Virus record (IMG/VR): IMGVR_UViG_3300014556_000001
DNA: 46,977 bases
Strand: one strand, 5' to 3'
Origin: a virus
Shown in pieces: positions 1,748 to 41,753 of the stretch. Every line of letters begins with the position of its first letter. Position 1 is the stretch's first letter. A program made the translations under genes and the position numbers. The notes below the pieces were generated by a model that worked only from the letters and a program-made list of their open reading frames with translations, was not told the DNA's origin and made no database searches.

Positions 1748-3178
1748 ATGAAAACTACGAGAATTCATATAAAAAATCTGTTCGGCATTTCTGAAACAGA
1801 ACTGGACGGACGCTCAATAGAAGTTACCGGCTCGAACGGCGTAGGTAAGACATCTATAATCGACAGCATAAAGTACGCTCTGACAAACGACAGCAGCCGT
1901 GATTATGTCATTAAGAACGGCGAGAATGAGGGCGAAATCTTCATTGAGACCGACACTGGTCTCACTATTGACCGCAAGAAGCGTGTCAATCAGGCAGATT
2001 ACAAGAACATCAGACAGGACGGCAAGCCTGTTCAGAGCCCCGAAGCATTTGTCAGAGAGCTGTTCACGCCACTGCAGATTGACCCCGTTAAGTTTACACA
2101 GATGTCAAGGCAGGAGCAGAACAGAATTATTCTTGACCTCATTGAGTTCAATTGGGATTTGAACTGGATTAAGGAGAAGTTTGGCGAAATTCCGCAGGGT
2201 GTTGATTATCAGCAGAATATATTGCAGGTCCTGAACGATATCCAGTCCGAAAAGGGCGTTTACTTCCAGACAAGGCAGGATATCAATAGAGAAATACGCA
2301 ACAAAACAGCGTTTATATCTGATATCGCAAAGGATATCCCGCAGGGCTTCCAGTCTGAAAAGTGGGAAGCATATGACCTGTCCGAAGCCTATACGAAGAT
2401 AACAAAGGCGCAGGAATACAACTCTCGCATCGAGAGGGCGAAGCTCTTCAAAGATAGCTATGACAACAAGGTCAGAGGTTATCAGGCTGAAATGGAAATT
2501 GCAGTAAGCAATCTGAAATCTGCTATCGCAGCAGAACGTGAGCAGCTGACTAGCGAAATCGAGCGCAAAAAAGCCGAAATCAAGGCGGCTGAGGACAAGC
2601 TCAATTCGCTTTCAGACAAGATAGCAGACAAGACTAAGATTTTTGAAAGCGAATACAGGGAGAAAGTCGCAAAGCTTGACAGCGACATCAAGGTAGCCGA
2701 TGAATACACAGGCAAGCAGCTTGTTAACATATCTGCAATGCAAGCTGAGGTCAAGACAGCTGAGGAAATGAAAAAGCACCTCAACGAATACAAACGTATG
2801 AAGTCGATGCAGGACGAGCTTGAAACACTCGAAGAACATTCTAAGGCGCTCACAAGCAAGATTGAGCTTGCAAGAGAGCTTCCAGGCGAGATACTTAAGA
2901 CAGCAACAATACCTGTTAAGGGGTTGACAGTTAAAGACGGCATACCTCTCATAAATGGACTTCCCGTCAGTAATCTGTCAGAGGGCGAACAGTTACAGCT
3001 TTGCGTTGATGTTGCCCTCAGCAAGCCTAACAGCCTACAGATAATTCTGATTGACGGAGCTGAGAAGCTTTCCGAAAAGAACAGGCTTGCACTTTATGAG
3101 AAGTGCAAGGAAAAGGGCTTGCAGTTTATCGCAACTCGCACAACGGACAGCGATGATCTGGAGGTGACATATCTGTGA
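1748..3178 (+). CDS. SMC/Rad50/RecF-like ABC-type ATPase with a central coiled coil
   Basis: Walker A GSNGVGKTS, a long Glu/Lys-rich coiled-coil middle, signature-like LSEGEQLQL and Walker B IILIDGAEKL. Confidence 0.8.
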   Translation: MKTTRIHIKNLFGISETELDGRSIEVTGSNGVGKTSIIDSIKYALTNDSSRDYVIKNGENEGEIFIETDTGLTIDRKKRVNQADYKNIRQDGKPVQSPEAFVRELFTPLQIDPVKFTQMSRQEQNRIILDLIEFNWDLNWIKEKFGEIPQGVDYQQNILQVLNDIQSEKGVYFQTRQDINREIRNKTAFISDIAKDIPQGFQSEKWEAYDLSEAYTKITKAQEYNSRIERAKLFKDSYDNKVRGYQAEMEIAVSNLKSAIAAEREQLTSEIERKKAEIKAAEDKLNSLSDKIADKTKIFESEYREKVAKLDSDIKVADEYTGKQLVNISAMQAEVKTAEEMKKHLNEYKRMKSMQDELETLEEHSKALTSKIELARELPGEILKTATIPVKGLTVKDGIPLINGLPVSNLSEGEQLQLCVDVALSKPNSLQIILIDGAEKLSEKNRLALYEKCKEKGLQFIATRTTDSDDLEVTYL

Positions 3179-15496: not shown

Positions 15497-15791
15497 ATGA
15501 CAGATGTATCTGCGCAATCCGACATGTTATCCGTCATAATCCGTCATGGGCTCTCACTTGTTAATAATTAATTCGCAAAACGCACGTTCGTTCTGGTTCA
15601 TGACAGATATAAAACCACATCTGTCATGGGTAATCCGTCATCTGTCATAGCCCCTATATTCCTAGCTTTGCAGGGTGCTTATGACAGCATGACAGATACT
15701 TTTAACAAAGTACAAATATTAATAAATATAAATACATATAGAAAAAACGAAATTTTGTCATAAAGTCATGTCATTCTGTCATATCCGTCAT
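15497..15791. repeat. Iteron-like array: 14 copies of a GTCAT core, as (C/T)(C/T)GTCAT or its complement ATGACAG
   Basis: GTCAT starts at 15533, 15543, 15623, 15637, 15644, 15757, 15765, 15770, 15778 and 15787. ATGAC starts at 15497, 15600, 15681 and 15689. Non-coding and AT-rich. Confidence 0.7.
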
Positions 15792-16009: not shown

Positions 16010-16565
16010 TGTTGTAAAAGGCAGAGGCGGTAAAAATAACTTCGGTACGTCCAACAAGGCAGCTCTTGCGAAAGATAGCGCTTTTGTCGGAAAAATGGTC
16101 AGAGAAGTCTATGTTGCTTACAAACAGCCAAAAGTTAAATCAAACGCTGAACTCGTAGATAGACTCGATAAGTATTTTAAACACTGTGCTGAAAATAATA
16201 TCATTCCTACCGTTGAGGAAATGTGCCTGTTCACGGGTTACTCAAATAAGACTGTTTGGGATTGGGAGAAAGGCAGATCACACCCGTTTGACGATGGAGA
16301 GTTGAACGTTTCGACGTCCGAAATTATAAAAAATGCCAAGAGTTTTATGTGTGCTTTTGATGCAAAATTGGTGCTGGCAGGCAAGCTAAATCCTGTGACT
16401 TACATCTTCCGTGCAAAGAACTACTACGGTATGAGTGACAGGCAGGAAGTCGAGATCACAAAGACCAATCAGCTTGGCGACAATCTGACCGATGATGAGC
16501 TTGCAAAGAAGCTCATGAAAGAAACTGAGGTCATAGACGTTGAAGCTTCTGAAGCTGAGGAATAG
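15999..16565 (+). CDS. terS: Terminase small subunit
   Basis: IPTVEEMCLFTGYSNKTVWDWEKG HTH as in Terminase_2-type TerS. ATG 15999 follows AAGGAGG. Acidic C-terminus. Confidence 0.7.
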   Translation: MANDVVKGRGGKNNFGTSNKAALAKDSAFVGKMVREVYVAYKQPKVKSNAELVDRLDKYFKHCAENNIIPTVEEMCLFTGYSNKTVWDWEKGRSHPFDDGELNVSTSEIIKNAKSFMCAFDAKLVLAGKLNPVTYIFRAKNYYGMSDRQEVEITKTNQLGDNLTDDELAKKLMKETEVIDVEASEAEE

Positions 16566-16568
16566 CAA

Positions 16569-16640
16569 GCGACTATCACTCACACGCTGAGCGACTATCA
16601 AACGACTATCAAACGACTATGAAACGCACACGGAAACGTA
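16569..16640. repeat. Four CGACTATCA-type repeats merging into AAACG phased about every 11 bp
   Basis: GCGACTATCA at 16569 and 16591, CGACTATCA at 16603, CGACTATGA at 16614. AAACG at about 16600, 16611, 16622 and 16634. Confidence 0.6.
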
Positions 16641-16707
16641 AAAGTTTTCACACGCAATAGTCGAAATAAATATGAATAGAAAATCGGTAAGAAAACAGCT
16701 GAAAATA

Positions 16708-16748
16708 CGCCGCCTGAGGGGTTGACCTTTGGGCGGCGGTGATTTTAT
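16708..16748 (+). terminator. Candidate intrinsic terminator after terS
   Basis: 7-bp all-GC stem CGCCGCC (16708-14) / GGCGGCG (16732-38), followed by GTGATTTTATCG. The 17-nt loop makes it atypical. Confidence 0.4.
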
Positions 16749-17053
16749 CGAAAAATCATGCACACACCACAAGGCGGCCAGCAAGCCCCGTATGACGTTT
16801 TAATGCTTATGACGGAAGTTTATAGGTAACACATTGAAACGTCATAGGGTGCACGCTAGGGGCATTGTAGAACGTTATAACAATAACAATGCTGCAAAGA
16901 TATCACCGCTAGGCCGTCCAGTGCGTCGCAAGAGCCGTCGGACAGCATTGAGCAGTAAAGATATAGGGGTATGATATCGGACCGCATATGCGGGCGAATG
17001 GGCGGCAAGGGGTGGGATAAAAAAGCAACGCCCACCCCACAATCAGCGGAGCA

Positions 17054-17125
17054 GGCAAAAAAGCCCGCCAAAGCCGGAGCCTTGGCGGGTAAAAATATAG
17101 GGGGCTGATACCGTCAACCCCCTAG
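17054..17125 (-). terminator. Two tandem intrinsic terminators for the minus-strand three-gene operon
   Basis: CCCGCCAA/TTGGCGGG (17064-71/17082-89) followed on the minus strand by CTTTTTTG. GGGGG/CCCCC (17100-04/17118-22) followed by TATATTTTTA. Confidence 0.55.
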
Positions 17126-17192
17126 AGCGGCTATTTGTAACGCTTTGCCGTTCTGATAACCACCAGAACAGGGAACAGAAACAGTGCAATTA

Positions 17193-17429
17193 TTAGCATG
17201 CGGTCACCGCCTCCGCGTCGGAAAAACGCGCGCCAAAAAAGAAATACGTGCGTTTTTTAGAAATGCTGACGCGTTCAAATACTGCATCTGTGCAATTTAT
17301 CTTTGACCGCTCGCAGGCGGTCAAGAGTTCGTTTCCTATCAATATCCCGTCAAAAATATGACGTCCGCAGCTGTCAGTTTTGTAAATTTTTTTTTGGTCA
17401 TACTGCGGTTTTACACGGAAATACGTCAT
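17193..17429 (-). CDS. Hypothetical 78-aa protein, third gene of the cassette operon
   Basis: ORF track. RBS-like GGGGGGTGA 5 nt upstream. The ORF contains a hairpin, so its coding status is uncertain. Confidence 0.5.
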   Translation of the reverse strand: MTYFRVKPQYDQKKIYKTDSCGRHIFDGILIGNELLTACERSKINCTDAVFERVSISKKRTYFFFGARFSDAEAVTAC

Positions 17430-18545: not shown

Positions 18546-19115
18546 ATGGTATACGGATATGCAAGAGTCAGCTCCGTAGGACAGATAGACGGAAACAGCT
18601 TTGAGGACCAAGAGAAGCTTATAAAAAGCAACTATCCAAATGCAGAAATACATCTGGAACAGGGCTCAGGTGCAAAAGAGCGTAAAGTGTTGAATGAAAT
18701 AATGAATAAAGCAGTTTCAGGCGACACGATAGTAGTAACAAAGCTTGACCGCTTCTGCAGGTCAACAGCGTTAGGTTTGGAGTATATCGAGCGCATGAGA
18801 GCGAAAGGTGTCAAGATACACATTCTCAACATGGGTCTGATAGAAAACACACCGATAGGCAAGCTGATTGTCACAAACCTGTTGGCATTTGCCGAGTTTG
18901 AGAGAGCGATGATACTTGAACGAACGCAATCAGGCAAAGCTATTGCACGTCAAAAAGAAGGCTACCAGGAAGGCAGACCGAAAACTGTAAACATACCTGA
19001 TGAGGTAAAGCAAAAGGTCGATAGTGGTAAAATGACAGTAGCCGCCGCCTGCCGTGAACTTGGCATAAGCCGTTCAACGTGGTATAATGAAATGAGAGCA
19101 GCAAGAACAGAATGA
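18546..19115 (+). CDS. Small serine recombinase (resolvase/invertase family) with a C-terminal HTH
   Basis: [13 protein letters not shown] (catalytic Ser), [28 protein letters not shown], and C-terminal [14 protein letters not shown]. Confidence 0.9.
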
Positions 19116-19201: not shown

Positions 19202-20920
19202 TTGTGTGGCACTATTTTTATGCCATGCAGAAAAAGTATGATAGATCTGACAGTAGTAGGCAACAGAGCATTAAGCAAAGAAGATATGTTTAAGCTTGCA
19301 CAAAAGCAGGCAAATGGTGAGTTGAAAACAGAACAGCTCCTGCTTGAAACGTTGAAAGTACAGGACGAAAAGAAGAAGCCGATGATAGAGGCGGCAAAGC
19401 ATAGCTATGAGAGCGCAATGAGAAAAACAAGCGAACTTGCAAAAGCAGGCAAAGCAAAACTCGCAAAAGAGTGGTATGACCTGGCTCACAAATTCGTACT
19501 GTGGGCAGGCGACAGCAATTTTGACGCATATATGCTGGCTTCCGAATGGAACAGAGAGCCAAGCGCTAAGTTCTGGGCACCAAGGAGAGCTGTTCTTGAG
19601 GGCAAGCACAAGTTGGCAACGCAGATACAAGAGTTCATAGACGATGAGGACGCCCTGTTTCTGAGCTTGAGCACGCCCCCAGGTGCAGGCAAGAGTACGC
19701 TTATAAAGTTTCTGCTGTCATACATTGCAGGACTGTTTCCGCAGTCTGCGAACATATACACATCATACTCAGACGGAATGTCGAAAATGATGTATGACAG
19801 TGTGGTATCAATGTTAACGGACACAAGTGAATATGGGCACAACGATATATTCGACAATGGTATGCCTACATTGAGTGCAGAGTACAACACTATATCGTAC
19901 CGAAAAAAAGGCGACTTCCCTACTATCGGAGTTATCTCCCTGGGCGGTTCGGTAACAGGTCGAACGAGAGCAAATAAGTTCATGATAACAGATGACCTCG
20001 TGAAGAATGCGGAAGTGGCAAGAAACCCGCAAAGGCTTGAAACACTGTGGCAGGATTACAGAGATACGCTGACAACCCGACAGATAGGCGATAATGTAAA
20101 GCAAATAATGCTCGGTACGATATGGAGTTTGCATGACCCTATCAGCCGAATGCGAACTGATCATGAGGGAGATCCGCGATATAGATTTATTGCGATACCC
20201 GTATGTGACGATAACGGCCATAGTAATTTCAATTACAACTGTGCGGACAGATACACAGATAAAAAAATACGTGACATAAAAGCAGACATAGATAATGTCA
20301 CATTTAGTTGCCTGTATATGCAGCAACCTATGGAACGTGAAGGTCTGCTCTTCCATAAGGACGAAATGAACTGGTATAACGGAACACTGCCTGACGGCTC
20401 TGCAAGAAGAATAGCTGTGTGTGATGTGGCGTGGGGCGGTGACTATCTGGCAATGCCGATAGGATATCTGTATGAGGACGGAAGTTTGTTTTTGCAAGAC
20501 GTGGTTTTCAGCAAGGGTGATAAAAAAATCACACAGCCAATGGTTGTGGCAAAGAGCATACAACATCAGATACATCAAGAGAGGTTTGAAGGTAATAACG
20601 GCGGAGATGAATATGCGAATGAGATAGATAAACAGCTGAGAGCACAGAACGTCCACATAAATATCAGCAGTAAACGTGCGTCGACAGCACAGAGCAAGCT
20701 TAGCCGAATATTGCAATATGCACCTGACATAAAACAGGTGTATTATCGCAACGATAACGGCAGAGGTGAGATGTACGATAAATTTCTGGAAAATCTGTTT
20801 GCATTTAATCAGAGCGGTAAAAACGCACATGATGACGCCCCCGACAGCATGGCACAGCTGTGTGCGTTTGCAACAAATGGCGTAGGCGCAAGTGTAGAAA
20901 TTATCAAGAGGATTATATAG
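19202..20920 (+). CDS. terL: Terminase large subunit
   Basis: Walker A LSTPPGAGKST, Walker B KFMITDDLV, and nuclease-domain C-terminus NAHDDAPDSM. Start is TTG 19202, or ATG 19220 or 19238. Confidence 0.9.
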   Translation: MCGTIFMPCRKSMIDLTVVGNRALSKEDMFKLAQKQANGELKTEQLLLETLKVQDEKKKPMIEAAKHSYESAMRKTSELAKAGKAKLAKEWYDLAHKFVLWAGDSNFDAYMLASEWNREPSAKFWAPRRAVLEGKHKLATQIQEFIDDEDALFLSLSTPPGAGKSTLIKFLLSYIAGLFPQSANIYTSYSDGMSKMMYDSVVSMLTDTSEYGHNDIFDNGMPTLSAEYNTISYRKKGDFPTIGVISLGGSVTGRTRANKFMITDDLVKNAEVARNPQRLETLWQDYRDTLTTRQIGDNVKQIMLGTIWSLHDPISRMRTDHEGDPRYRFIAIPVCDDNGHSNFNYNCADRYTDKKIRDIKADIDNVTFSCLYMQQPMEREGLLFHKDEMNWYNGTLPDGSARRIAVCDVAWGGDYLAMPIGYLYEDGSLFLQDVVFSKGDKKITQPMVVAKSIQHQIHQERFEGNNGGDEYANEIDKQLRAQNVHINISSKRASTAQSKLSRILQYAPDIKQVYYRNDNGRGEMYDKFLENLFAFNQSGKNAHDDAPDSMAQLCAFATNGVGASVEIIKRII

Positions 20921-21019
20921 GGGGACTTAAATAAGGAAAATTTATAGGCAGACGCTGAAATGAAAGCGAATTGTGCAACATGAACAAAAATGTTGAATAA
21001 TATTTTACATAGTGTGAAG

Positions 21020-21048
21020 TGGAAAAAGTTGAAAAGTAGTATTATAAT
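21020..21048 (+). promoter_or_regulatory. Possible promoter (TGGAAA-17-TATAAT) for the KTR-like gene
   Basis: TATAAT at 21043-48. The -35 element is weak. Confidence 0.3.
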
Positions 21049-21071
21049 AAGCTTGTCAGGAGGGATAGGTA

Positions 21072-21260
21072 ATGGATAATAGGCGCATACATAATAGGCG
21101 CATAGATGTATATTGTCCGAGCTGTGCGGCGGCAGGCATAAAGCGAAAGCTTATGGAAGTCGATAATGACGCAAAGGGCGTTATCTATCCATACTGCAAG
21201 GGCTGTAAGAAAAACGTTGCAGTTAAATTGCCCATAAGTGCTGAAAAGCACCTCCGTTAA
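21072..21260 (+). CDS. 62-aa cysteine-rich KTR-like zinc-ribbon mini-protein
   Basis: VYCPSCAAAGIKRKLMEV...YPYCKGCKKNVAVKL: two CxxC pairs spaced as in the Cys-rich KTR family. RBS AGGAGGG. Confidence 0.6.
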   Translation: MDNRRIHNRRIDVYCPSCAAAGIKRKLMEVDNDAKGVIYPYCKGCKKNVAVKLPISAEKHLR

Positions 21261-21261
21261 G

Positions 21262-21829
21262 TTAATTTACGGGGCGAAAGCCCCGTATGTTCCGCAAAGT
21301 CAGAGTGGGTGCAATTCCCACACGGAACACCAAGCCTGTTATAAGTCTGTCGGCCAAGGTCGATAACGAATAACTTAAAAACCACACATTGATGGCTGTG
21401 TGTCGCTGGGTAGAATAGCCTAGGGTACTTTTTTACAATGAATTTATTTTCCTTAAAGCTAAATTCATTTCGTCAGCTGGAACGAAATCCAGCCAACCAA
21501 CGGGTTAATGCTTAATCCCGTATCAAAAGGCATATCATTCCTTTACTCTGCCAACACTGATGAGTGTTCGGGCAGGATCGCAAAGCTGTATTGCAACAGG
21601 TACAGCTTTGAATTTGCAGGTTGAGAGCGTGCCAGCTCGAAGCCTGCTCCATTTGGCAGCTGCTATCCTCTCCAGGTATCACCCACAAAGCAGTTGCCAT
21701 GCAAGCTTGTCCAAGCTTGATCTCCTTTCTGTTTTTACAGCGGCGGTAACACGCCGCACATGTCGGCTGACAGTGTGAGCCTGAAAGTCGGCACCATAAG
21801 AATATTAAGTGCCAAGTGTTTAATTACCA
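21262..21829 (+). ncRNA. Candidate large structured non-coding RNA (about 570 nt). Class unknown; ROOL/GOLLD-like context.
   Basis: No credible ORF. At least 10 perfect helices, including a GAAA tetraloop hairpin at 21268-21287 and a 10-bp helix at 21581-21610. Ends at a strong terminator. Confidence 0.45.
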
Positions 21830-21877
21830 AGTGCCTATTAGTTATCTAAAAAAGATAGCTGATAGGCACTTTTTTTG
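21830..21877 (+). terminator. Strong intrinsic terminator
   Basis: 17-bp stem AGTGCCTATTAGTTATC / GATAGCTGATAGGCACT (two G-U pairs), loop TAAAAAA, then seven T. Confidence 0.75.
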
Positions 21878-21996
21878 TTGCACGGAGGTGAAACAATACG
21901 GAATTACACGGCAGACGAAAAATCCTTCTGAATGAAAGAGATATTACAGAAGAAAACATTATTGAAATAGTTCGGAGAGCGGTCGCAACTCACGAA

Positions 21997-23394
21997 TTGA
22001 ACCGAGAAGAAATTGAGTATCTCCACAACTATCTACGTGGGAAGCAACCAATTTTAAATCGTGTCAAAGAGGTTAGGCCTGAGATTAATAATAAAATCGT
22101 TGAAAACCATGCATTGGAAATAAACAATTTCAAGGTCGGTTTTATCTTTGGCGAACCTGTTCAATACGTCAAGCGTGGAAATTGCGAGCTTGATAATACA
22201 GGAAGCGATGCTCCATCAGATAATGGTGTGGCGGCTCTCAACGAGTATATGCAAGAGGACGATAAAGCTGCCAAGGACAGAGAGCTTGCTGAGTGGATAA
22301 ATCAGTGTGGCGTGGGATATAGGCTGGTACTTCCCTCTGATGTGGACGAAGATGTTCCGTTTGAAACATATATACTTGACCCTAGAAACACGTTTGTTAT
22401 CTACAGTAATGACTATAAACGCAAGCCTGTTATTGGTGTGACATACTCCAGCTACAGATTTGCAAATGCAGATATAACAAGCTACAGGTCATTTGACATT
22501 TACACCAATGAATGGTATTGGCGTATCGACTTCAAAAACGGCGAAGGCGTTGTGGCTAGATCACAGCCGAACAACATTGGATATATTCCAATTATCGAGT
22601 ATGAAAATAATCCTGAACGTTTAGGCTCATTTGAGACAGTTATAACACTTTGCGATGCTATAAACAACATTGACAGTAATGACATTGACGGAATTGAGCA
22701 GATAATACAGGCGTTTACATGGTTTGACAACATAGATATCGATAAAAAACAGCTGCAAGAGCTCAAAGAGCTTGGCGCAATAAAAACCCGTTCGCAAGAA
22801 GGGCGTCAAGCGTCAATAAAAAATATCGAAACAAAGCTCGATATTTCACAGACTCAGGTAGCTAAAGATGACCTATATGATCGAATGTTGACGATTGCGA
22901 GTGTGCCTGATCGTAGAGCAAGTGCAGGTGGCAACACAGGTCAAGCACTGATAATCGGTGAAGGCTGGGTAATGGCTGAAAGTGCTGCCAAAGCTTTTGA
23001 ATTGATGTTTGTAAAGCCTGAAAAGCAGTTTTTAAGAGTTGTTCTGAAAATCTGCAAGAACACTCGAAACTGCAAGCAGGAAGTCAAAGATATTAAACTT
23101 CACGATATTGATGTGAAGTTTACAAGAAACAAGACTGACAACCTGCTCACTAAGACGCAAGGTCTGATGAATATGTTGCAGGCAGGCATTCACCCAAGAA
23201 TAGCCATTCTGCACTGTGGATTGTTTTCTGATCCTGAACAGGTTTATCAGGATAGCAAGCCATACTTAGAAGCAACAACACAGCAACAGCAAGACACGGG
23301 TAATTTTGCCGTAAATACCACTGTAGCTGATGAAATGCTCAAGGCCATAGGAGCTATGGACAACAACGGCGGTGATAACAGTGGCAACGCTTAA
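21997..23394 (+). CDS. Portal protein (SPP1 gp6-like). The true start is probably upstream at about 21898, but it has no canonical start codon.
   Basis: EIEYLHNYLRGKQPILNRVKEVRPEINNKIVENHA. The frame is open from 21892, and RBS GGAGGTG lies at 21884-90. Confidence 0.85.
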   Translation: MNREEIEYLHNYLRGKQPILNRVKEVRPEINNKIVENHALEINNFKVGFIFGEPVQYVKRGNCELDNTGSDAPSDNGVAALNEYMQEDDKAAKDRELAEWINQCGVGYRLVLPSDVDEDVPFETYILDPRNTFVIYSNDYKRKPVIGVTYSSYRFANADITSYRSFDIYTNEWYWRIDFKNGEGVVARSQPNNIGYIPIIEYENNPERLGSFETVITLCDAINNIDSNDIDGIEQIIQAFTWFDNIDIDKKQLQELKELGAIKTRSQEGRQASIKNIETKLDISQTQVAKDDLYDRMLTIASVPDRRASAGGNTGQALIIGEGWVMAESAAKAFELMFVKPEKQFLRVVLKICKNTRNCKQEVKDIKLHDIDVKFTRNKTDNLLTKTQGLMNMLQAGIHPRIAILHCGLFSDPEQVYQDSKPYLEATTQQQQDTGNFAVNTTVADEMLKAIGAMDNNGGDNSGNA

Positions 23395-40749: not shown

Positions 40750-40898
40750 GTAAAATTCCTCCTAAACATCTTGACAAAATTTTGATTTTATGCTAAGATA
40801 ATAGGGTACTACCCTACTGTCCATTTGCTGTGGTTTGTCGGTGTTGTACACGCCCTCACAGGTCGCACTGTGGGGGCATTTTTTTATTGCGGTATGTT

Positions 40899-41753
40899 TT
40901 ATCCGCCACACACCTTGCAAGGCTTATAGCCTGCATTTTGTGCGTCCTGTAGGTTCATTGGCGTGCAGGTATCATCATAGTATCTGCATGATTTGTTGTG
41001 ATACTTGTCGCCCGAAGCCGTGATATACACGATTGTTTCGGCTGGGTACTGCGTGGTAGTTGTCACAGGGGGTGCTTCGGTGGTGGTTTCAGGCTCTGCG
41101 GTGGTGGTTGTCGTCGTGGTGGTAGTGGTAACTTTTTCGCCCATATCCACTGTGATTGTGATAGGGTCAGATGTCACACCGTCATATGTGGCGGTCACGT
41201 CCGCAAAGCCGTCTTTCAGGGGGATCACCGCATATGTGATGTAGTATGTTGATTTTTTCAGATATGTTATTTGGCAGACGTCTGAATTGCTATTGATAAT
41301 CTTCACGTCTTTTGGGTCGATATCTTTCGCACGTTTTTCACCTTTGATTTTTAAATCAATTTCAAAATCTTTGTCATATCCTGTCATTGTGACCGAATAT
41401 TCATTTTTCTGCCATTCCACAGTGGTGGGGCGTTTATAGCCCAGCAGCCGTGATATGCCCACAACTATGACCGATATAACGCAGAACGCAACTATCATCA
41501 TCAGGCAACCGCCCTTTGACGTGCCACTCGTCTTTTGGCCGTGAGAACTACGACTTGACGACTTCCTGCCACCCGACGTTGATACATATGACAGCCCCGT
41601 TCCAGGTATACCGACAGACTTTGTGCGCCGCCCTGAGCTGTTGACAGTGTATCGTGCGCCCTTTCCACCGACACTCATGCTGACAGATTTTTTGCCGATG
41701 TTCAGCTTCGCGCCATTGCCAAGTTTGATTGATTTTCTAAAACGTAATCCCAT
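40899..41753 (-). CDS. DUF4236-type membrane protein with an extracellular Ig-like region, a poly-Thr linker and a C-terminal Cys/His zinc-binding tail
   Basis: MGLRFRKSIKLGNGAKLNIGKKSVSMSVGG...GIPGTGLSY, TM GGCLMMIVAFCVISVIVVGI, T9 run, and GDKYHNKSCRYY...GYKPCKVCGG. ATG 41753 follows AGAAGGAG. Confidence 0.75.
   Translation of the reverse strand: MGLRFRKSIKLGNGAKLNIGKKSVSMSVGGKGARYTVNSSGRRTKSVGIPGTGLSYVSTSGGRKSSSRSSHGQKTSGTSKGGCLMMIVAFCVISVIVVGISRLLGYKRPTTVEWQKNEYSVTMTGYDKDFEIDLKIKGEKRAKDIDPKDVKIINSNSDVCQITYLKKSTYYITYAVIPLKDGFADVTATYDGVTSDPITITVDMGEKVTTTTTTTTTTAEPETTTEAPPVTTTTQYPAETIVYITASGDKYHNKSCRYYDDTCTPMNLQDAQNAGYKPCKVCGG

What the first reader, a model, noticed from the sequence alone, without database searches (positions are those of the whole stretch)
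21262..21829. About 570 nt of helix-dense non-coding sequence with its own terminator: a candidate large structured RNA in the terL-portal gap
No credible ORF lies between the KTR-like stop (21260) and a strong terminator (21830-21877). The 62- and 72-aa track ORFs there lack an RBS and cross the stems. The tract is packed with perfect short helices: 21268-21287 (8 bp, GAAA tetraloop); nested GTTCCG/CGGAAC 21289-21328 around GTGGG/CCCAC; 21383-21402; 21437-21469; 21476-21493; 21500-21521; 21553-21568; a 10-bp helix at 21581-21610; and 21740-21757. It interrupts a junction that is normally tight. Its size, phage location and Firmicutes-like host recall the ROOL/GOLLD class of giant ornate RNAs. 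I cannot confirm membership by eye, so it may be a new RNA class.
Basis: partly seen in the sequence, partly recalled or inferred. Interest (0 to 1): 0.75.

Follow-up and report, generated by a model that had tools for sequence, protein, structure and literature searches.

The report
Phage array of tRNA-like hairpins
The tract is real, non-coding and structured, but it is neither a ROOL nor a GOLLD RNA: it is a shuffled array of small RNA hairpins, three of which mimic the end of a tRNA, and closely related gut phages carry a true ROOL RNA at its 3' end.

Summary
Window 21262-21880 has no conserved ORF, contains all the listed helices, ends in a 19-bp terminator, and folds far better than shuffles (z -9.2 on the + strand, -4.35 on the - strand).

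No Rfam family matches the tract, including ROOL, GOLLD, tRNA and introns. About half of the 95-100% identical sibling phages carry a genuine ROOL RNA (300-305 bits) inserted at window 21802/21803. This window lacks it.

The tract is not one large fold. Across 32+ variants it is a mosaic of swappable modules, including one optional ORF.

Its recurring unit is a hairpin with U(-1), a G1:C72 closing pair, a stem of 6-7 base pairs, any base N, then an invariant CCA. Copies lie at 21288-21332, 21615-21651 and 21761-21796. Three of the six such motifs in the whole window (both strands) fall in these 568 nt.

In unrelated phages ROOL sits in tRNA arrays, with a tRNA ending 18-20 nt upstream. Here the third unit occupies that position.

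My best reading is a co-transcribed cassette array punctuated by tRNA acceptor-arm mimics that RNase P probably cleaves. Cleavage is inferred, not shown. It counts as a new variant of a known kind.

The parts
21020..21048 (+). Promoter-like site (TGGAAA, 17 nt, TATAAT) upstream of the small ORF. It may start the transcription unit that ends at the 21829 terminator.
   Evidence: Consensus scan only, 10 of 12 matches. Not tested further.
21072..21260 (+). 62-aa ORF with an Arg-rich N-terminus and a CxxC...CxxC zinc ribbon. It is a conserved phage gene lying between terL and portal.
   Evidence: Homologues at 55-97% identity keep terL-ORF-portal synteny. No Pfam family matches.
21268..21287 (+). 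Hairpin 1: an 8-bp GC-rich stem with a GAAA loop, directly 5' of the first tRNA-like unit. Its proposed role is to stabilise the 3' end of the upstream mRNA after cleavage.
   Evidence: Fold. One pair covaries GC/GU/AU across 26 variants. The same arrangement occurs in the distant relative L042 with a GCAA loop and a G.U pair. The role is inferred.
21288..21332 (+). Unit M1, a tRNA-like minihelix. It comprises U(-1) at 21288, an acceptor-like stem 21289-21294/21323-21328, a 10-nt linker, a 5-bp arm 21305-21309/21317-21321 with the 7-nt loop UGCAAUU, N73 at 21329, and CCA at 21330-21332.
   Evidence: CCA is invariant in 26 of 26 distinct variants while N73 varies (A/U/G). The UGCAA part of the loop is invariant and the last two loop bases vary. 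The stems are almost invariant, so they have no covariation support. The best Rfam resemblance is Tymo_tRNA-like at 16.9 bits, E 0.99, which is not significant.
21333..21546 (+). Variable cargo slot. Hairpins lie at 21338-21374, 21383-21402, 21406-21423 (followed by a U run at 21427-21432, terminator-like), 21437-21469, 21476-21493, 21500-21521 and 21526-21544.
   Evidence: Fold and terminator-like scan. In sibling phages this segment is replaced in part by non-homologous hairpins that contain another NCCA unit, or by a 115-aa ORF.
21547..21610 (+). Two conserved hairpins that always precede unit M4. The first is 21547-21576, whose tip varies in length. The second is 21581-21610, with 12 bp.
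   Evidence: Alignment A1. Helix 21581-21610 is 100% paired in 31 variants and two of its pairs changed on both sides (CG/GC and UA/CG). The inner stem of the first hairpin changes from AACACU/AGUGUU to AACGCC/GGCGUU, with tip insertions of 10-27 nt.
21615..21651 (+). Unit M4, an acceptor-arm mimic. It comprises U(-1) at 21615, a 7-bp stem 21616-21622/21641-21647, a GA/GA internal loop, a 4-bp stem 21625-21628/21635-21638, N73 at 21648, and CCA at 21649-21651.
   Evidence: CCA is invariant in 31 of 31 variants. Stem positions vary GC/GU/AU and UA/UG/CG. Paralogous copies occur in the optional 148-nt module and in the L031-type replacement segment.
21654..21757 (+). Cargo slot between M4 and M6, with hairpins at 21654-21699, 21702-21719 and 21740-21757.
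   Evidence: Fold. A 10-nt indel at about 21668-21677 in many siblings is tolerated inside the loop of the first hairpin.
21761..21796 (+). Unit M6, an acceptor-arm mimic with the same build as M4. It comprises U(-1) at 21761, a 7-bp stem 21762-21768/21786-21792, a GA/AA internal loop, a 3-bp stem, a 7-nt loop, A73 at 21793, and CCA at 21794-21796.
   Evidence: In ROOL-carrying siblings its CCA ends 13 nt before the start of the ROOL model match. That is the position a tRNA holds in other phages, at 18-20 nt.
21802..21803 (+). Empty ROOL site. Sibling phages carry about 550 nt, a complete ROOL RNA, between these two bases.
   Evidence: The junction shows AGAA microhomology and a TTAAGT duplication.
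21807..21835 (+). Two copies of the AAGUGCC heptamer (21807-21813 and 21829-21835). The second copy forms the base of the terminator stem.
   Evidence: Sequence. One to four such repeats are conserved ahead of the portal gene in nearly all relatives, down to 58% protein identity.
21829..21878 (+). Intrinsic terminator with a 19-bp stem, a 5-nt loop and a U7 run. It closes the unit before the portal gene (21997-23394).
   Evidence: Relatives keep a terminator here with different inner stems but the same AAGUGCC/GGCACUU base.

Best explanation
The tract is a + strand, non-coding cassette array carried by phages of gut Oscillospiraceae.

Proposed mechanism: it is transcribed together with the upstream small ORF and ends at the 21829 terminator. 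Between those points lie independent structured modules, called cargo here. Cargo can be small hairpin RNAs, sometimes an ORF, and in many siblings a ROOL RNA.

The cargo is separated by short mimics of the tRNA acceptor/T arm. Each mimic has U(-1), G1:C72, a stacked hairpin of about 12-13 layers, then NCCA. This window has three of them.

These features are those reported for model hairpin-loop substrates of bacterial RNase P. The host tRNA-processing machinery would therefore cut 5' of G21289, G21616 and G21762 and trim to CCA. That would release the cargo RNAs. It would also leave the upstream mRNA ending in hairpin 1, a stable stem that should protect its 3' end.

The array thus plays the role that real tRNA genes play around ROOL in other phages.

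What is shown: the structure, the mosaicism, the motif enrichment and conservation, the ROOL linkage and the positional equivalence to tRNAs. What is inferred: co-transcription, RNase P cleavage and release of the cargo.
For: Structure and strand:
- z is -9.2 on the + strand and -4.35 on the - strand.
- G.U is the commonest pair at two helix positions.

Conservation of structure:
- 94.8% of cells are paired in 31 variants, with 4 pairs changed on both sides, and 0 of 500 shuffles reach the covariation score.
- Hairpin tips and terminator stems are swapped while the fold is kept.

Modular build:
- There are 32 distinct gap variants among 42 loci whose flanking genes are 95-100% identical. They differ by replaced, duplicated and deleted segments.
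- Arrays hold 3-5 units.

The unit:
- Three of the six U|G...C-N-CCA hairpins in 94 kb (both strands) lie in these 568 nt.
- Across variants, 34 distinct hairpin sequences carry CCA at this position, against at most 8 for any other trinucleotide.
- CCA is invariant in 26/26 and 31/31 variants, while N73 and the 3' flank vary.

Functional equivalence of unit types:
- In the distant relative L042, hairpin 1 is followed by an M4-type unit where the window has M1.
- A second unit there, with one mismatch in its stem, sits just before the AAGUGCC repeats.

Link to tRNAs:
- ROOL in 12 unrelated phage loci is mostly embedded in tRNA arrays.
- A same-strand tRNA ends 18-20 nt before it, or starts 0-26 nt after it.
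- Here M6-CCA ends 13 nt before it.

Literature:
- ROOL and GOLLD lie near tRNA islands and may be co-transcribed with them (PMC5737381, PMC12286853).
- Bacterial RNase P cleaves acceptor/T-stem hairpin models 5' of G and uses the 3' RCCA-P15 pairing (PMC11143913, PMC12710915).

Mobility:
- The same array, at 84-98% identity, ending at M4 and its own terminator, lies in a different phage backbone upstream of terS, or upstream of HNH-portal.
Against: - There are no expression or cleavage data.
- M1's own stems are nearly invariant and carry a few uncompensated C.A mismatches.
- Covariation elsewhere rests on a few haplotypes, so on few independent events.
- I defined the NCCA motif after seeing the sequence, so the enrichment figures are post hoc. 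Without the U(-1)/G1:C72 constraints, CCA is no commoner after stems in the window tract than CTG (4 each).
- Most of the roughly 16 hairpins have no CCA, and this model does not explain them.
- Processing signals alone do not explain why the array is so variable between near-identical phages.
- CCA-containing units are not RNase Z substrates, so how the downstream cargo gets its 5' end is left open.
- Some ROOLs have their own promoter and need no flanking tRNA.
Confidence: 0.5

Rival explanations
1. The acceptor-arm mimics are themselves the product. They act as decoys or sponges for host factors that act on tRNA 3' CCA ends or acceptor stems. Candidates are tRNA-targeting defence toxins, the CCA-adding enzyme, or, in siblings, partners of the ROOL cage. 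Fast turnover of the modules would reflect an arms race.
For: - The array is hypervariable between phages whose flanking genes are 95-100% identical, with units duplicated up to 5 per array. This is the pattern typical of accessory or counter-defence loci (own knowledge).
- CCA is strictly conserved.
- The cassette moves between phage backbones.
- The ROOL structure paper speculates that the cages may hold phage tRNAs (PMC12286853).
Against: - No defence system or binding partner has been identified.
- The units lack anticodon arms and any obvious aminoacylation identity element. None has a G3:U70 pair (my reading of the sequences).
- A decoy still needs a free CCA end, so this reading depends on the same processing as the best explanation rather than excluding it.
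Confidence: 0.15
2. The tract is a long cis-regulatory leader. Its hairpins and terminators (21406-21432 and 21829-21878), together with the AAGUGCC repeats, gate read-through from the packaging genes into portal and the head genes. An antiterminator would control this, and the Arg-rich zinc-ribbon protein encoded just upstream is a candidate.
For: - A strong terminator sits inside the late operon.
- AAGUGCC repeats overlapping the terminator base, and the upstream zinc-ribbon gene, are conserved in nearly all relatives.
- In the second phage group the array also ends in a terminator just before the packaging genes.
Against: - The conserved regulatory core (repeats plus terminator) exists in relatives that have no tract at all, with gaps of about 100 nt. 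The roughly 540 nt upstream of it is therefore dispensable for that function.
- Cargo such as ROOL and an ORF does not fit a leader.
- The invariant NCCA is left unexplained.
Confidence: 0.12
3. The tract is a single large ornate RNA of a new class. It would have one global fold and its own function.
For: - It is about 570 nt long, has an extreme folding z-score and a terminator of its own.
- It matches no known family.
- It lies beside ROOL in siblings.
Against: - Whole internal segments are exchanged for non-homologous sequence or an ORF, duplicated, or absent in near-identical phages.
- Only local hairpins are predicted consistently.
- The one long-range helix is not conserved, and the ROOL insertion would fall inside it.
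- The second phage group carries only the first two thirds of the tract.
Confidence: 0.07
4. The hairpins work at the DNA level (pac/cos site, recombination hotspot, replication element), or the tract is decaying filler with no function.
For: - Both locations lie next to packaging genes.
- The mosaicism shows frequent recombination here.
Against: - Pairing is strand-specific. Many G.U pairs on the + strand would be C.A mismatches on the other strand, and the z-scores are asymmetric.
- Compensatory changes and retained terminators point to selection on an RNA.
- Distant relatives package without the tract.
Confidence: 0.06

Closest known systems
ROOL RNA (Rfam RF03087) and its tRNA-island context
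   Same: - The locus is the same. Sibling phages carry a full ROOL (model positions 1-574, 300-305 bits) inserted at window 21802/21803, inside this tract and before the same terminator.
- It is phage-borne and non-coding, and the length is similar.
- ROOL elsewhere is flanked by same-strand tRNAs (PMC5737381, PMC12286853). Here it is flanked by a tRNA-like unit.
   Different: - The tract gives no ROOL or GOLLD match, even at E<=10.
- ROOL is 98.5-100% conserved among the siblings, whereas the tract is mosaic with blocks at 75-100% identity.
- The tract has no global fold and no pseudoknotted multistem core.
Model hairpin and other non-tRNA substrates of bacterial RNase P (acceptor-stem/T-stem-loop minihelices with 3' RCCA)
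   Same: - A stem of 6-7 bp whose first base is G, paired to C.
- A further stacked short helix and loop, a single-stranded 5' leader ending in U, and N73 followed by CCA.
- These are the features reported as sufficient for cleavage 5' of G, with RCCA pairing to the P15 loop (PMC11143913, PMC12710915).
   Different: - Cleavage has not been shown here.
- M4 and M6 have a tandem purine internal loop instead of a continuous 7/5 helix, and no clear T-loop.
- Three to five copies are arranged as an array in a phage late region.
tRNA punctuation of polycistronic transcripts (mitochondrial tRNA punctuation; phage T4 multimeric tRNA precursors)
   Same: tRNA-shaped elements separate other RNAs in one transcript, and tRNA-processing enzymes release the neighbours (PMC3790967, PMC11143913).
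   Different: The punctuation marks here are not tRNAs. ARAGORN and the Rfam tRNA model find none. They are 31-40-nt acceptor-arm mimics with no anticodon arm.
Viral and bacterial tRNA-like structures (tymovirus TLS, tmRNA tRNA-like domain, bacterial Y-RNA-like YrlA)
   Same: M1 has an acceptor-like stem, a 5-bp arm with a 7-nt loop of the form U-G-C-A-A-N-N, and a 3' NCCA. Its weak best Rfam resemblance is Tymo_tRNA-like.
   Different: That match is not significant (16.9 bits against a threshold of 40, E 0.99). There is no pseudoknotted acceptor arm, no D-arm mimic and no tmRNA. The elements are internal to a transcript, not at its 3' end.

Membership tests
ROOL RNA (RF03087) | A match to the Rfam covariance model at or above the gathering score of 99.1 bits (multistem junctions, three pseudoknots, conserved motifs such as AAUAGACG and GUGAAA). 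| tested here: not met
   No hit in the window at gathering score, and none in 20850-22050 at E<=10. The same search scores sibling loci at 300-305 bits over model positions 1-574.
ROOL RNA (RF03087) | Genomic context: phage or prophage, next to tRNAs or tRNA-like elements. | tested here: met
   The context is shared. The empty ROOL site lies at 21802/21803, and tRNAs flank ROOL in the unrelated phages L111-L140. Context alone does not make the tract a member.
GOLLD RNA (RF01998) and other large structured RNAs in Rfam (OLE, raiA, group I/II introns, HEARO, tmRNA, RNase P RNA, 6S) | A match to the family covariance model. | tested here: not met
   All 4227 Rfam 15 models were scanned. None reaches gathering score. 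At E<=10 only sub-threshold microRNA or sRNA noise appears on the terminator and on hairpin 1/M1.
tRNA | Cloverleaf with an anticodon arm, detectable by ARAGORN or Rfam RF00005. | tested here: not met
   ARAGORN finds 0 tRNA and 0 tmRNA in the window and in 17 related loci. RF00005 gives no hit at E<=10.
RNase P minihelix-type substrate (acceptor/T-arm mimic) | A stem of about 7 bp that starts with G(+1) paired to C(+72), with a single-stranded 5' leader. | tested here: met
   M1 has 6 bp (a 7th U-A pair is possible). M4 and M6 have 7 bp. All three have G1:C72 and U(-1).
RNase P minihelix-type substrate (acceptor/T-arm mimic) | A 3' N73-CCA directly after the stem, under selection. | tested here: met
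   ACCA, UCCA and ACCA in the window. CCA is invariant in 26/26 and 31/31 distinct variants while the neighbouring bases vary. CCA is the top trinucleotide in this position by 34 to at most 8.
RNase P minihelix-type substrate (acceptor/T-arm mimic) | A coaxial stack of about 12 bp ending in a T-loop-like loop. | tested here: inconclusive
   M1 has a 6-7 bp stem plus a 5-bp arm with loop UGCAAUU, but one unpaired A lies between the helices. M4 and M6 stack 7 + 2 (purine-purine) + 3-4 layers, with no clear T-loop. No 3D test was possible.
RNase P minihelix-type substrate (acceptor/T-arm mimic) | Actual cleavage by RNase P at the -1/+1 junction. | not testable with these tools
   This needs in vitro cleavage assays or 5'-end mapping in vivo.

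The most novel reading that the evidence does not exclude
Gut phages carry a previously undescribed, mobile class of non-coding element: arrays of tRNA acceptor-arm mimics with encoded CCA ends. These would be more than processing marks. They would be active molecules, such as decoys for host enzymes or defence toxins that act on tRNA 3' ends, or cargo or partners of the ROOL nanocage. That would give the first functional handle on ROOL.
Probability: 0.15. Interest if true: 0.85.

Novelty: new variant of a known kind. Interest (0 to 1): 0.6.

Why it matters
ROOL and GOLLD are abundant giant phage RNAs that form cages and have no known function. Their unexplained habit of sitting among tRNAs is one of the few clues available.

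This locus adds three things:
- An Rfam-unmatched family of tRNA-end mimics takes the place of tRNAs next to ROOL. That argues the link is about tRNA-type processing or tRNA-end recognition, not about decoding.
- There are natural pairs of phages, 95-100% identical in the flanking region compared, that differ by a precise presence or absence of ROOL. These are ready-made knockouts for testing what ROOL does.
- The non-coding cassette array is exchanged between unrelated phage backbones. This shows that structured-RNA cargo can be mobile in the way accessory genes are.

For annotation, it warns that long helix-dense phage spacers may be arrays of small elements rather than single large RNAs.

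Tried and rejected
- Rfam. No family matched at gathering score over the whole window. At E<=10 over 20850-22050 there was only sub-threshold noise.
- BLASTN of the tract. No match in 50,697 phage records or 72,556 plasmids. The tract plus ROOL from L001 gave only one 38-nt match in the phage records.
- tRNA and tmRNA search. None found.
- Coding reading. The 72-aa and 62-aa ORFs match no Pfam family and are broken by a 10-nt indel and a 148-nt insertion in siblings.
- Single global fold. Rejected on the mosaicism and on the non-conserved long-range helix.
- First crude stem-plus-CCA counter. It was too noisy, finding 107 'stems', and was replaced.
- Plain NCCA-after-stem count within the window tract. 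Not distinctive on its own (CCA 4, CTG 4). It becomes distinctive only with the U(-1)/G1:C72 constraints and across variants.
- First structure string for alignment A2. It was mis-registered and the count was repeated.
- MAFFT alignment A1. It misaligned the variable-tip hairpin, so that hairpin was judged by eye only.
- Scan with an 18-mer from hairpin 21740-21757. It gave three chance hits (L102, L104, L107).
- Genome scan. It gave one real host hit (Hominimerdicola aceti) and one 22-nt match in a 67% GC genome that fits chance expectation.
- Covariance model of the 35-nt unit. Not built, because the information content was judged too low.
- 136-aa protein upstream of the array in the second phage group. 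It has no Pfam hit, so calling it a late activator is only my reading of its C-terminus.
- Literature searches. None found a description of such arrays.

Full report
**1. The observation**

Window 21262-21880 lies between a 62-aa zinc-ribbon ORF (21072-21260) and an SPP1-type portal gene (21997-23394; PF05133, E 9e-69). It is downstream of a 572-aa ORF I read as the large terminase (terL), which has no significant Pfam hit.

The 19-bp terminator at 21829-21871, followed by a T run, was recovered by the scan.

The + strand folds at -231 kcal/mol against -169 +/- 6.8 for shuffles (z -9.2). The - strand gives z -4.35. Four consecutive 150-nt windows give z between -2.4 and -4.9, against a window-wide mean of -0.88.

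Gene callers placed no gene in this gap in ten sibling contigs. The 72-aa and 62-aa ORFs have no Pfam hit and are not conserved.

**2. Known families**

No Rfam 15 family reaches its threshold anywhere in the window. At E<=10 the tract yields only noise. ARAGORN finds no tRNA or tmRNA. BLASTN against the phage and plasmid collections finds nothing.

**3. Relatives show what the locus is**

The exact 62-aa protein occurs in 482 collection blocks. In loci whose flanking genes are 95-100% identical, the gap between this ORF and portal measures about 727, 737, 1273 or 1437 nt.

The extra ~550 nt is a complete ROOL RNA: RF03087, model positions 1-574, 300-305 bits, E about 1e-69. It is inserted at window 21802/21803, just before the same terminator. 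The junction shows AGAA microhomology.

Seventeen of 32 distinct gap variants carry ROOL, and it is 98.5-100% conserved among them. This window is a ROOL-minus variant.

The tract upstream of the ROOL site is quite different. It is a mosaic in which blocks are 75-100% identical, or are replaced by non-homologous sequence, duplicated or deleted:
- Tract nt 1-73 is present in all variants.
- Nt 74-209 is replaced in one group by a 115-aa ORF. Its DUF4406 match is weak and below the Pfam cut-off.
- Nt 175-302 is replaced in another group by about 170 nt of other hairpins.
- A 148-nt module is optional.
- A 10-nt indel sits in a hairpin loop.

This pattern excludes a single conserved global fold. 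It also breaks the two ORFs.

**4. The hairpins are under selection as + strand RNA**

In a 31-variant alignment, helices 21581-21610 and 21616-21647 are 94.8% paired. Four pairs changed on both sides, and no shuffle out of 500 reached the covariation score. Sliding the partner columns drops pairing to 30-41%.

G.U is the commonest pair at two positions. That fits only the + strand.

The inner stem of hairpin 21547-21576 changes from AACACU/AGUGUU to AACGCC/GGCGUU, with tip insertions of 10-27 nt. Hairpin 1 has one GC/GU/AU pair.

Two caveats apply. The sequences fall into a few haplotypes, so the independent events are few. And M1's own stems barely vary.

**5. The recurring unit**

Three hairpins in the window share the same features: U(-1), a G1:C72 closing pair, a 6-7 bp stem, N73, then CCA. 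They are M1 (21288-21332), M4 (21615-21651) and M6 (21761-21796).

M1 also contains a 5-bp arm with the loop UGCAAUU. M4 and M6 share one build: 7 bp, a GA/GA or GA/AA internal loop, 3-4 bp, and a 6-7 nt loop.

In the whole window, both strands, the constrained motif occurs six times. Three of those are in this 568-nt tract. Across all variants, 34 distinct hairpin sequences carry CCA at this position, against at most 8 for any other trinucleotide. CCA is invariant in 26/26 (M1) and 31/31 (M4) variants, while N73 and the following bases vary.

Further copies lie in the optional 148-nt module and in the replacement segment. Arrays therefore hold 3-5 units.

I defined the motif after seeing the sequence, so these figures are post hoc. 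Without the U/G:C constraints, CCA is not distinctive within the window tract alone.

**6. Independent support**

L042 is a more distant phage, with a zinc-ribbon protein 78% identical. There, hairpin 1 (GCAA loop, one G.U pair) is followed by A-U|G and an M4-type unit ending ACCA, in the place where the window has M1. A second unit sits just before the AAGUGCC repeats. Its 7-bp stem carries one A.C mismatch, so I read it by eye rather than with the motif scanner. Two unit types are thus interchangeable at a conserved position.

Still more distant relatives (58-72% identity) have no units. Most keep 1-4 AAGUGCC repeats before the portal gene, and the three such gaps I read in full also end in a terminator. 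The tract is therefore an add-on to a conserved core.

A scan for M1 found 22 further viral contigs with a different backbone. In these the array, running from hairpin 1 to M4 at 84-98% identity, ends in its own terminator. It lies upstream of terS-terL-portal or of HNH-portal. The cassette is mobile.

One such copy is in a Hominimerdicola aceti genome (Oscillospiraceae).

**7. The link to tRNAs**

In 12 unrelated ROOL-carrying phage loci, ROOL is usually embedded in tRNA arrays. A same-strand tRNA ends 18-20 nt before the start of the ROOL model match (L111, L118), or a tRNA starts 0-26 nt after ROOL (L113, L118, L122, L115). Others have a TTGACA/TATAAT promoter of their own.

In the present lineage there are no tRNAs. 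M6-ACCA ends 13 nt before ROOL.

The literature notes that ROOL and GOLLD lie near tRNA islands and may be co-transcribed with them (PMC5737381, PMC12286853). It also reports that bacterial RNase P cuts acceptor/T-stem hairpin models 5' of G, helped by pairing of the 3' RCCA to the P15 loop (PMC11143913, PMC12710915).

**8. Interpretation**

The best-supported reading is a co-transcribed array of structured cargo RNAs, punctuated by tRNA acceptor-arm mimics that the host tRNA-processing machinery cuts. Hairpin 1 would be left as a protective 3' end on the upstream mRNA.

The structure, mosaicism, motif conservation, ROOL linkage and positional equivalence are shown. Transcription, cleavage and release are inferred (confidence 0.5).

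The rivals are:
- Decoys for factors that act on tRNA ends (0.15). This is compatible with the same processing.
- A regulatory leader (0.12). That role probably applies only to the repeats and terminator.
- A single large new RNA (0.07).
- A DNA-level element or filler (0.06).

**9. Verdict**

The finding is real and worth follow-up. It is not a ROOL/GOLLD member and not one giant RNA.

It is a new variant of a known kind: tRNA-like processing or punctuation elements, and phage non-coding RNA islands. Its value for ROOL biology is that it supplies tRNA-end mimics in the tRNA position and natural ROOL-plus and ROOL-minus sibling phages.

Noticed in passing
window 21802-21803; L001 3899-4418; L008 3729-4247: Phages whose flanking genes are 95-100% identical differ by a precise presence or absence of a complete ROOL RNA (about 550 nt). 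The junction shows AGAA microhomology and a TTAAGT duplication. Seventeen of 32 distinct gap variants carry it. These are natural ROOL knockouts.
   Followed up: yes
window 21807-21813 and 21829-21835; L043 4370-4400; L047 4180-4210; L049 4165-4195: The heptamer (A)AGUGCC is repeated 1-4 times just before the portal gene in nearly all relatives of this phage family, down to 58% protein identity. Where I read the gap, the last copy forms the base of the terminator stem. The Arg-rich zinc-ribbon ORF is always immediately upstream. This may be a protein-controlled terminator.
   Followed up: partly
window 16560-17200 (+): A second helix-dense stretch with no credible ORF (z -7.85). It has iteron-like direct repeats (CGACTATCAAA, 3-4 copies, at 16560-22) and a 24-nt inverted repeat enclosing 386 nt. 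No Rfam match at E<=5. It may be a replication origin.
   Followed up: partly
L024 about 2616-2943; L061 and L096 (replacing window 21334-21470): Some variants carry a 115-aa ORF (MKIFISQPMRGKTDEEIL...) in the first cargo slot, directly after M1-CCA. It has only a weak DUF4406 match (E 1.3e-3, below the Pfam cut-off).
   Followed up: partly
window 21287-21289, 21614-21616, 21760-21762; alignment A1 columns 139-145: Every unit begins with AUG or UUG (U at -1, G at +1). In the second phage group the M4 unit ends CCACCA in most variants. I do not know whether either feature means anything.
   Followed up: no
window 18546-19115: A serine recombinase (Resolvase PF00239, E 6e-30, with an HTH_7 domain) sits directly upstream of the large terminase, where a small terminase would be expected. 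The same synteny is seen in L001-L010, L042 and L047. No Terminase_2-type small-subunit gene lies between it and terL.
   Followed up: no
window 15562-15711 (-), 2212-2361 (+), 40762-40911 (+): Other 150-nt windows with strongly negative folding z-scores (-7.9, -5.7, -5.4) in the sliding scan. Not examined.
   Followed up: no
L118 1911-2226: An unrelated ROOL-carrying phage contig of 133 kb encodes a tmRNA (RF00023, 120 bits) within its large tRNA array.
   Followed up: no
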